NCBI GenBank assembly: GCA_951406725.2
Contig: OX597833.1
Coordinates: 13,516,001 to 13,580,000, forward strand
Length of the DNA stretch: 64,000 bases
DNA from: Octopus vulgaris
Lineage: Eukaryota
Direction: 5' to 3'
A program made the translations under genes and the position numbers. How positions within the stretch are numbered: the stretch's first letter is position 1; each line of letters begins with the position of its first letter. Below the pieces are notes generated by a model that was given only the letters and a program-made list of their open reading frames with translations, was not told the origin of the DNA and did not search any database. This document shows positions 25,081 through 26,837 of the stretch, one piece after another.

Positions 25081-25559
25081 TTAAAGAGCCGGAATATTGC
25101 GACCCTCTAAGCAATATTGCTTGCTTACATCTGTCATCGTTCTGTCCGTCTGTCAAGTGTTTTCCGCCCTTCTCCCATACTTGTATGACTATGCTGAAAG
25201 TAATCCACAAATACGGATCAATAGGGAAAATACTAATTTCGGAACGGAAATCAAGTCATCTAACTACTATAAATAATTGTTGAAATAATAAAATAGTTTA
25301 AGTCACTTCAATGAGTGAAAATACATCACTTTGTACAACGTGACAACGCGATTCGTACGTACTCCATTTTTCATTTATATCCTTCAAGGAAAGTACTCCA
25401 TACAAGGGCCCTGCCTTGAAGGATTGTAGTCGCTTAAATCGATCCCATTATATATATATAAATCCAGGGTGAATACTTGATAAATATTAAGCACCTGTAT
25501 ATGCCAGCTAGTGGCATAGGTGATAGGATATATGTATAAAATGAAATAAATGAAAAACA

Positions 25560-25687
25560 GGACGCAAAGGATTTTGCAGTACATATGTTTCGAGCTTTAT
25601 AGAACAAACTTATTTTTAGATCAATGCATAATTGATATAAATAGATAGATCAAAAACCTTTCTTCAGCCGCGTACAATTGCTACACC
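25560..25687 (-). ncRNA. Type I hammerhead ribozyme candidate (family G)
   Basis: Minus strand: GCGG-CUGAAGA(25667-25661)-long stem II-GAA-ACAUAUGU-A|CUGC; intact core, palindromic stem III. Confidence 0.7.
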
Positions 25688-25730
25688 AAAGACTTGTATC
25701 ACATTATAAAAGGTTTGAGAAAAGATTTAC

Positions 25731-26118
25731 GGCTGTGTGGTAAGTAGCTTGCTAACCAACCACATGGTTCCGGGTTCAGTCCCACTGCGTGGCATCTTGG
25801 GCAAGTGTCTTCTGCTATAGCCTCGGGCCGACCAAAGCCTTGTGAGTGGATTTGGTAGACGGAAACTGAAAGAAGCCCGTCGTATATATGTATATATATG
25901 TGTGTTTGTGTGTCTGTGTTTGTCCCCTAGCATTGCTTGACAACCGATGCTGGTGTGTTTACGTCCCTGTCACTTAGCGGTTCGGCAAAACAGACCGATA
26001 GAATAAGTACTGGGCTTACAAAGAATAAGTCCCGGGGTCGATTTGCTCGCCTGGAGGCGGTGCTCCAGCATGGCCGCAGTGAAATGACTGAAACAAGTAA
26101 AAAAAAAAAAAGAGTAAA
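25731..26118 (+). mobile_element. SINE B inserted at the centre of a family G palindrome
   Basis: Splits GATTTAC|AAAGATACTTTCCC, which is intact at 26568 and 62069. Confidence 0.88.
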
Positions 26119-26180
26119 AGATACTTTCCCAATGAAACTCGGTTTTTTCTCAACTCTTTTATAATGTGATACAAGTCTTT

Positions 26181-26287
26181 GGTGTAGCAATTCTACGCGC
26201 CTGAAGAAGGTTTTTGATCTATCTATTTATATCAATTATGCATTGATCTAAAAATAAGTTCGTTCTATAAACCCGAAACATATATAA
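26181..26287 (+). ncRNA. Family G hammerhead, 3'-truncated in stem III
   Basis: CTGAAGA 26201-26207, GAAA 26275-26278; GUA site and 3' stem I missing. Confidence 0.55.
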
Positions 26288-26637
26288 TTGTATCTTTATA
26301 TACTTTTTTTTTTTCATCTTTACTTTTTATTATATTTTATATTTATTATTATCCTTTATAATTATGTTTACATTTATATATATTTTCTTTTTTGTGATCC
26401 CAACTTCATTAAAGTTTCACCCCCTTCCCCTCCTTTCCTCTTTCTCTTAACATCCAATTCCTTCCCTTATATGAAGTAACCTACCCAGTATTCATTCTAT
26501 ATCGAGTGAGAAAACGGTATGGACGATTTGCTTTGGAGTCTAATAATACCATTGTACGCCTATGAAGATTTACAAAGATACTTTCCCAGTGATACTCGGT
26601 TTTTTCTCAAACCTTTTATAATGTGATACAAGTCTTT

Positions 26638-26766
26638 GGTGTAGCAATTGTACGCGGTTGAAGAAGGTTTTTGATCTTATCTATTTATATTAATTATGCA
26701 TTGATGTAAGAATAAGTTTGTTCTATAAACCCGAAACATATATGAACCGCAAAACCCTTTGCATCC
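26638..26766 (+). ncRNA. Family G hammerhead, core-mutated (C3>U, U16.1>A)
   Basis: GCGG-TTGAAGA-AGGTTT...AAACCC-GAA-ACATATATGA-A-CCGC; element 26555-26785 ends flush with (TA)n. Confidence 0.55.
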
Positions 26767-26777
26767 TGTTTTTCATT

Positions 26778-26837
<60 letters not shown>

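What the first reader, a model, noticed from the sequence alone, without database searches (positions are those of the whole stretch)
25538..26785. Second family G locus: a palindromic hammerhead twin split by a SINE, plus a third tandem arm
Seen: 25538-25723 (minus-strand hammerhead with intact CUGAAGA/GAAA/GUA, and stem I GCGG/CUGC kept by a G-U pair) is inverted relative to 26117-26287 and 26555-26785. A SINE B sits exactly at GATTTAC|AAAGATAC in the centre. Substitutions in the distal stem I (UGCACC to UGCAUC) preserve pairing. The same head-to-head architecture at two loci 36 kb apart suggests the palindrome reflects the insertion mechanism rather than chance (inference).
Basis: partly seen in the sequence, partly recalled or inferred. 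Interest (0 to 1): 0.7.

Follow-up and report, generated by a model that had tools for sequence, protein, structure and literature searches.

The report
Penelope-type ribozyme repeats, inverted plus tandem
Three copies of a roughly 230-base repeat with a hammerhead-ribozyme motif, one inverted and two in tandem, with a SINE near the junction, are likely the decayed remains of a Penelope-like retrotransposon insertion, a layout already described for these elements.

Summary
The three arms, their orientations and the SINE junction are real. The motif has the published hallmarks of Penelope-like-element (PLE) hammerheads: an unpaired base after the first core box, a G10.1-C11.1 pair and a palindromic helix III. 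It also has a long 65-69 nt helix II region.

Corrections:
- The SINE sits 15 nt inside the middle arm, not on the symmetry axis.
- The left arm has intact core boxes but a damaged helix II.
- No base pair shows a two-sided change (0 of 25).
- Head-to-head arms cannot form a ribozyme dimer in cis.

Added here: the five arms fall into two subtypes, and the 62 kb palindrome holds one of each, so it is not a fold-back copy of one template (p at most 0.013). No PLE protein gene was found and no outside copies could be fetched. New member of a known kind; interest 0.3.

The parts
25533..25723 (-). Arm a1: inverted, 5'-truncated repeat (starts about 44 nt inside the 5' boundary seen in a3-a5); subtype alpha
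25576..25671 (-). Type I hammerhead motif of a1: core 25667-25661, GAAA 25591-25588, palindromic helix III, predicted cut after 25580; helix II damaged
   Evidence: fails the descriptor
25722..25730 (+). 5' stub of arm a2, including the AA overlap with a1 that marks the inversion junction
   Evidence: one search compared with a3 and a5
25731..26116 (+). tRNA-type SINE, 11 nt short at the 5' end. A-box-like 25731-25740, B-box-like 25773-25783. Its tail repeat runs into the target (5-nt overlap AAAGA); no target duplication seen
   Evidence: (13 other hits in the window); promoter consensus from PMC8969392
26117..26285 (+). Arm a2: first direct repeat, subtype alpha at two diagnostic sites; ends in the ATATAT of helix III, 3 nt before the predicted cut; helix I broken
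26286..26557 (+). Spacer of about 270 nt: T-rich, then unique; no other copy in the window and no recognisable coding frame; likely a remnant of the element body or captured DNA
26558..26785 (+). Arm a3: second direct repeat, subtype beta; hammerhead core mutated at C3 (26658) and U16.1 (26745)
26784..26834 (.). (TA)n tract at the 3' end of a3, the likely target; a short TA-rich run (25526-25533) flanks the outer end of a1
61846..62060 (-). Second locus, arm a4: subtype alpha; the only arm that passes the strict hammerhead descriptor (61976-61893); flanked by (TA)n
62061..62292 (+). Second locus, arm a5: subtype beta, U4 mutated; joined to a4 with no spacer at the 6-bp palindrome 62058-62063; flanked by (TA)n

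Best explanation
The locus holds one inverted and two direct copies of a hammerhead-bearing repeat ending in a TA tract, and is likely a non-coding, decayed insertion of the pseudo-LTR of a Penelope-like retrotransposon, later interrupted by a SINE. Inferred steps, from the known PLE pathway: (1) an RT/GIY-YIG protein supplied in trans nicked a TA run; (2) reverse transcription started about 45-50 nt downstream of the ribozyme cut site on an RNA carrying two repeat copies (upstream alpha, downstream beta) and gave beta, spacer, alpha; (3) the other end of the target was joined by a second, 5'-truncated copy of alpha in inverted orientation, fused head-to-head at a 2-nt microhomology; (4) most of the body was lost between helix III of a2 and the spacer; (5) a tRNA-type SINE inserted 15 nt inside a2 using tail-target microhomology. 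The 62 kb palindrome would be the same structure without the middle part, made by direct-repeat collapse or by priming on both repeat copies. The hammerhead would have worked only as a dimer through its palindromic helix III, or with protein help, in the source element. The copies here are predicted to be inactive or nearly so.
For: Arms, orientation and boundaries. PLE-type hammerhead features: unpaired base after the first box in 5 of 5 arms, G10.1-C11.1 in 5 of 5, palindromic helix III in 3 of the 4 complete arms; these match the published metazoan PLE consensus (PMC4209133). The strict descriptor finds 2 sites in the window (a4 and one other family) and 0 in 200 shuffles. Helix III self-duplexes are -8.4 and -10.8 kcal/mol. 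The layout of two direct and one shorter inverted pLTR, palindromic junctions, and unrelated DNA between pLTRs is described in PMC3846280. Inverted 5'-truncated copies, (TA)n targets, hammerheads near the 3' end, and Penelope-13_HM with hammerheads on both strands are in PMC8557442 and its supplement. 5' ends vary (positions 1, 1, 7 and 44 from the axis for a4, a5, a2, a1). Two subtypes: a3 and a5 share 2 of 112 gap-free sites, which arises in 27-257 of 20000 star-phylogeny simulations.
Against: No RT or GIY-YIG fragment was found in 150 of 210 stop-to-stop frames scanned or in the spacer, so there is no direct link to an autonomous PLE. There is no Rfam hit and no covariation. The hammerhead fold is 8.5-15.5 kcal/mol above the ensemble in the four complete arms, and two arms fold no better than shuffles. 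The descriptor that finds a4 was written after reading the PLE paper; an earlier one found none of the five arms. No 30-40 nt tail difference between ends is seen; outer ends differ by about 8 nt at most. An upstream pLTR should run past the ribozyme, and a2 does not, so an extra deletion is needed. The alpha/beta placement has only about a 2 in 10 chance level with five arms. 0 of 7 other hammerhead-bearing repeats in the window have a head-to-head partner.
Confidence: 0.78

Rival explanations
1. Same PLE origin, but two events. First an alpha/alpha palindrome (a1+a2) formed; then a beta copy with its upstream spacer inserted into the ATATAT of a2's helix III, because the element's endonuclease targets TA runs, including its own.
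For: a2 ends exactly in the AT run. a1 and a2 share subtype and are the closest pair, 94.4%. PLEs tend to insert into or next to existing copies (PMC6765202), and the anole PLE protein nicks its own pLTR junction (PMC11167929).
Against: No separate remainder of a2 lies beyond a3, unless priming was homologous. It does not explain why the 62 kb palindrome mixes alpha and beta.
Confidence: 0.3
2. The palindrome is a MITE or foldback DNA transposon whose two slightly different TIRs move as one unit into TA; the hammerhead match is inherited or accidental.
For: Three of four outer ends stop at the same point, followed by TA. Both loci have one alpha and one beta outer arm. MITEs can be reduced to TIRs only (PMC8969392). 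There is no covariation.
Against: It does not explain a third arm in direct orientation, variable 5' ends, or a3 ending about 8 nt early. Long (TA)n flanks are not a 2-bp duplication. The motif carries PLE-specific features and 0 of 200 shuffles match the descriptor.
Confidence: 0.1
3. It is a non-LTR retrozyme, a head-to-tail hammerhead array amplified through circular RNA, with a chance inversion.
For: Type I hammerhead, unit of about 230-460 nt, two copies in tandem (a2, a3); retrozymes are reported to derive from pLTRs (10.64898/2026.07.22.740005).
Against: No tandem array is found. a2 is incomplete, and neither tandem copy has an intact ribozyme. Both loci are head-to-head.
Confidence: 0.07
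4. The inversion is an assembly or long-read fold-back artefact.
For: Palindromes next to microsatellites are hard to assemble (PMC8557442).
Against: Arms differ by 6-13% with private indels, and at 62 kb they belong to different subtypes.
Confidence: 0.02

Closest known systems
Typical EN+ Penelope-like element layout (Pen2a_Av, Pen3a_Av of Adineta vaga; PMC3846280)
   Same: Two direct repeats of about 200-230 bp plus an adjacent shorter inverted copy, head-to-head; palindrome or microhomology at the junction; non-coding DNA between direct repeats also reported.
   Different: No ORF here; no readable TSD because the flanks are TA runs; no 31-bp tail; the upstream repeat is cut at helix III; a SINE sits near the junction.
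Hydra-clade PLEs such as Penelope-13_HM, and (TA)n-targeting Neptune/Naiad PLEs (PMC8557442)
   Same: (TA)n flanks; hammerhead close to the 3' end followed by an AU-rich tail; an inverted 5'-truncated copy giving hammerheads on both strands.
   Different: Listed Hydra hammerheads have 3-10 nt loop II; family G has 65-69 nt between the core boxes. Arm motifs gave no match to a PLE end in the paper's consensus files, so the clade is undetermined.
Metazoan PLE minimal hammerheads, including the Drosophila virilis variant (PMC4209133)
   Same: Type I topology, unpaired base after the first box, G10.1-C11.1, short helix I, palindromic helix III, a bulge within helix II as in D. virilis; opposite-strand pairs 100-700 bp apart reported in Schistosoma.
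   Different: A much longer loop II holding an 11-bp AU-rich hairpin. The longest loops in the table I read are about 30-35 nt (PLE-X1). Activity untested.
Non-LTR retrozymes (PMC7229834; 10.64898/2026.07.22.740005)
   Same: Non-coding, type I hammerhead, related to pLTRs.
   Different: Retrozymes are head-to-tail arrays with a ribozyme in each unit; these loci are head-to-head.

Membership tests
Non-autonomous PLE (pLTR-only insertion) | Type I hammerhead in a terminal repeat near the 3' end | tested here: met
   Cut site about 40-50 nt from the TA tract
Non-autonomous PLE (pLTR-only insertion) | Inverted, 5'-truncated copy joined head-to-head | tested here: met
   2 of 2 loci
Non-autonomous PLE (pLTR-only insertion) | Partial tandem of direct repeats (pLTRs) | tested here: met
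   a2 and a3 at this locus (a2 incomplete at its 3' end); absent at the 62 kb locus
Non-autonomous PLE (pLTR-only insertion) | Insertion in (TA)n microsatellites | tested here: met
   3 of 4 outer ends abut long TA tracts, one a short TA run
Non-autonomous PLE (pLTR-only insertion) | Optional 30-40 bp tail at one end, and TSD | tested here: inconclusive
   Outer ends differ by about 8 nt at most; a TSD cannot be read in TA runs; the tail is optional in PMC8557442
Non-autonomous PLE (pLTR-only insertion) | Ends homologous to an autonomous PLE of the same genome | not testable with these tools
   No animal genome collection on hand; exact motif searches of one paper's consensus files found no matching end
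Autonomous EN+ PLE | ORF with RT and GIY-YIG domains | tested here: not met
   No such domain in 150 of 210 frames scanned; spacer translations
PLE minimal hammerhead ribozyme | Core boxes CUGANGA, GAAA, UH | tested here: met
   All intact in a1 and a4; one or two changes in a3 and a5; a2 truncated
PLE minimal hammerhead ribozyme | Unpaired base at 9.1, G10.1-C11.1 pair, palindromic helix III | tested here: met
   against PMC4209133
PLE minimal hammerhead ribozyme | Compensatory changes in helices | tested here: inconclusive
   0 of 25 pairs change on both sides, but five arms at 87-94% identity have little power
PLE minimal hammerhead ribozyme | Self-cleavage (as a dimer or with protein) | not testable with these tools
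   Needs a bench assay; the monomer fold is disfavoured
MITE / foldback DNA transposon | Terminal inverted repeats | tested here: met
   The arms are long inverted repeats
MITE / foldback DNA transposon | Fixed boundaries and uniform structure among copies | tested here: not met
   5' ends at positions 1, 1, 7 and 44; a3 ends early; a third, direct arm; only two loci
MITE / foldback DNA transposon | Superfamily-specific TSD and matching transposase TIRs | not testable with these tools
   TA tracts hide a TSD; no host genome
Non-LTR retrozyme | At least two consecutive head-to-tail units, each with a complete hammerhead | tested here: not met
   criterion
tRNA-derived SINE (the insert) | A and B boxes 30-35 nt apart, dispersed copies, repeat tail | tested here: met
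   Boxes 32 nt apart; 13 other hits; tails; ARAGORN finds no tRNA gene

The most novel reading that the evidence does not exclude
Family G is a short non-autonomous Penelope-like element whose insertions are built from two differently marked templates: the inverted arm comes from the upstream repeat (alpha) and the outer direct arm from the downstream repeat (beta), by priming on both target strands by a dimeric enzyme rather than by fold-back of one cDNA. The break of a2 three bases before the cut site is the footprint of a ribozyme-cut RNA used as a template. The arm subtypes would then be a natural marker that settles how PLE head-to-head junctions form and shows the hammerhead acting in vivo.
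Probability: 0.15. Interest if true: 0.65.

Novelty: new member of a known kind. Interest (0 to 1): 0.3.

Why it matters
As a layout it is ordinary for Penelope-like elements, which repeat annotation often misfiles as MITEs or unknowns, so the main use is correct annotation. Two details could matter. First, how PLE tandem and inverted ends form is stated as unresolved (PMC8557442; PMC3846280), and arms that carry subtype marks make the competing models testable by counting genomic copies. Second, a hammerhead with 65-69 nt between the core boxes escapes Rfam and the short-spacer core descriptors quoted, so such ribozymes may be undercounted. Read-through transcription would give a long double-stranded hairpin (165 long-range pairs at the 62 kb locus), a possible substrate for editing or small-RNA pathways (inference).

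Tried and rejected
- Rfam: 0 hits at gathering threshold in the whole window; 7 weak hits at E up to 10 around the locus, none a hammerhead.
- First hammerhead descriptor (ungapped helix II): missed all five arms. The PLE-style descriptor finds 1 of 5.
- Free folding of a1 and a4: no hammerhead, z = +0.86 and +1.63.
- Pfam on 150 of 210 frames (I left out 60, mainly ones overlapping SINEs, microsatellites or other scanned frames): no RT or GIY-YIG. One weak metallo-beta-lactamase hit is a CA-repeat artefact.
- Exact 27-nt scan of bacterial and archaeal genomes for stray copies: 0. Metagenome and viral contig collections stayed unchecked, and no animal genomes were available, so the genome-wide count is open.
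- Motif searches in the supplements of PMC8557442 and PMC5804259: no matching PLE end or SINE. These were exact matches only, and line breaks can hide hits.
- The whole-window inverted-repeat scan was swamped by a low-complexity tract. The masked rerun drops self-overlapping palindromes and so misses the 62 kb locus.
- PMC5785218 (Lunse et al., PLE hammerhead variants) is not held; it may list similar variants. One supplement file of PMC4209133 could not be searched, and the supplement of PMC13282606 was listed but not read.
- Rejected: the SINE as part of the palindrome axis; one-sided G-U changes as evidence of selection; cis-dimerisation of the head-to-head pair; assembly artefact.

Full report
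Context. The window is repeat-rich, animal-like DNA with many microsatellites and SINEs. It has no Rfam hit at gathering threshold, no tRNA gene and no convincing Pfam domain in 150 of 210 stop-to-stop frames scanned. The SINEs look to me like octopus repeats; that is recalled, and one attempt to confirm it found nothing, so the host is unverified.

Observation. BLAST within the window gives exactly five arms at two loci: a1 25533-25723 (minus), a2 26117-26285 and a3 26558-26785 (plus), and a4 61846-62060 (minus) with a5 62061-62292 (plus). Pairwise identity is 87-94%. A 17-nt motif occurs 5 times against 0.06 expected. At 62 kb the arms meet with no spacer at a 6-bp palindrome. Counting from that axis, a2 starts at position 7 (stub 25722-25730), a1 at position 44, and the SINE is inserted after position 15. 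So the SINE lies inside a2; the inversion junction is a 2-nt AA overlap just to its left. The SINE lacks 11 nt at its 5' end relative to the copy at 10.3 kb, shows no target duplication, and its tail repeat overlaps the target by 5 nt.

The hammerhead. Each arm has a type I motif. There are 65-69 nt between the first box and GAAA, an unpaired base after the first box, G10.1-C11.1, a bulged 5-bp helix II, an 11-bp hairpin in loop II, a helix I of up to 4 bp and a helix III of palindromic sequence. These are the features listed for metazoan PLE hammerheads (PMC4209133). My first descriptor missed all five arms. One rewritten after reading that paper finds 2 strict sites in the window, a4 and a member of another family, and 0 in 200 shuffles; with one core mismatch it finds 6 sites against 4 in 60 shuffles. 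a1 fails on helix II, a2 is cut short, a3 has two core changes, and a5 has one plus a larger bulge. Against function of these copies: no pair of 25 changes on both sides (that alignment misplaces the helix III gap, so helix III and one helix I pair were left out), the constrained fold is 8.5-15.5 kcal/mol above the ensemble, and a1 and a4 fold no better than shuffles. Helix III self-duplexes of -8.4 and -10.8 kcal/mol fit the dimer mode. A head-to-head pair cannot supply that dimer in cis: a read-through RNA carries one sense motif, buried in a long hairpin.

Arm subtypes. a3 and a5 share two substitutions and a longer helix III against a1 and a4; a2 sides with a1 and a4 at the two substitutions, and its helix III is ambiguous or long. 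Under independent decay from one ancestor, two shared sites in any pair of arms arise in 27-257 of 20000 simulations over 112 gap-free columns, with the a4 deletion region left out; a rougher run with higher assumed rates gave 1-12%. So the 62 kb palindrome joins two templates that already differed, or was converted later, and is not a simple fold-back of one cDNA. The pattern fits a source RNA with an upstream alpha and a downstream beta repeat, but with five arms that placement has about a 2 in 10 chance level.

Mechanism. Shown: geometry, boundaries, TA flanks, motif features, subtypes. Inferred: trans-mobilisation by a PLE RT/GIY-YIG protein, priming at TA, a second truncated copy joined head-to-head by microhomology, internal deletion, later SINE insertion. 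The anole PLE protein nicks and extends both strands, prefers AT-rich DNA, is predicted to be a dimer, and its hammerhead cleaves only with protein and is not needed for insertion in vitro (PMC11167929). This makes two-ended priming plausible and argues against a required role for the ribozyme. Arkhipova and colleagues instead propose self-priming on an antisense template. a2 ends 3 nt before the predicted cut. That could mark a ribozyme-cut template, but the break lies in an AT run that is also a natural nuclease target and slippage site, and I noticed it after the fact.

Comparison. The layout of two direct pLTRs plus a shorter inverted one is called the typical Penelope structure, and non-coding DNA between pLTRs is reported (PMC3846280). 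Inverted 5'-truncated copies and (TA)n targets are general for EN+ PLEs, and Penelope-13_HM carries hammerheads on both strands (PMC8557442). Opposite-strand pairs 100-700 bp apart are reported in Schistosoma. The locus works like a PLE insertion and meets the testable features of a non-autonomous one; it is not an autonomous PLE, and the link to a parent element could not be tested. MITE and retrozyme each fail a tested feature. I found no description of this family in searches for octopus or cephalopod PLE hammerheads, PLE twin priming, self-priming, or exact motifs in one consensus set; these do not cover Repbase, Dfam or subscription journals.

What I saw of each paper. PMC8557442: passages, supplement parts 1, 2, 52 and 53 and three searches. 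PMC4209133: parts 1-2 of 4 and supplement passages. PMC3846280: passages and sections 6 and 9. PMC11167929: parts 1-2 of 4. 10.64898/2026.07.22.740005: part 1 of 5. PMC7229834, PMC8969392, PMC13282606 and PMC6765202: passages only. PMC5804259: a supplement search only. PMC5785218: nothing.

Verdict. A real feature, largely as described, and best read as a decayed non-autonomous Penelope-like insertion (confidence 0.78). The architecture is known. The long-loop hammerhead and the mixed-subtype palindrome are modest additions worth a genome-wide count. New member of a known kind; interest 0.3.

Noticed in passing
window 10036-9959 (-): A separate type I hammerhead with intact core, 4-bp helix I, near-palindromic helix III and another long AU-rich loop II with a hairpin; it starts right after a TA run and a (TA)n tract lies about 140 nt downstream. 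No similarity to family G was found.
   Followed up: partly
window 10047-10150: A 104-bp imperfect palindrome between TA runs with CTG...CAG ends, MITE-like, directly upstream of that hammerhead.
   Followed up: no
window 27047, 27898, 33075 (+); 33444, 43419, 43660 (-): Two further families of short minimal hammerheads of PLE type (4-bp helix II, CG palindrome in helix III), each followed by a tail and TA repeats. Only 43419 has an intact first box. The 33.0-33.5 kb pair is tail-to-tail; none is head-to-head.
   Followed up: partly
window 61899-61852 (-), arm a4: An ATG inside helix III opens 15 codons before a stop at the arm's end (read). In the anole and rotifer PLEs the ORF start lies in the pLTR, so this may be a remnant start.
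   Followed up: no
window 24359-25033 and 28171-28500: Tandem arrays: 3.7 copies of a 184-bp unit at 91% and at least 3.2 copies of a 102-bp unit at 95%. The 184-bp unit resembles a dispersed repeat also seen at 61.6-61.8 kb.
   Followed up: no
window 14776-16040: A long low-complexity tract (15% GC in the 14-16 kb bin, strong GC skew) that swamps inverted-repeat scans.
   Followed up: no
window 22978-23199 (+): A weak Pfam metallo-beta-lactamase hit that is only a His-Thr run translated from a CA microsatellite.
   Followed up: yes
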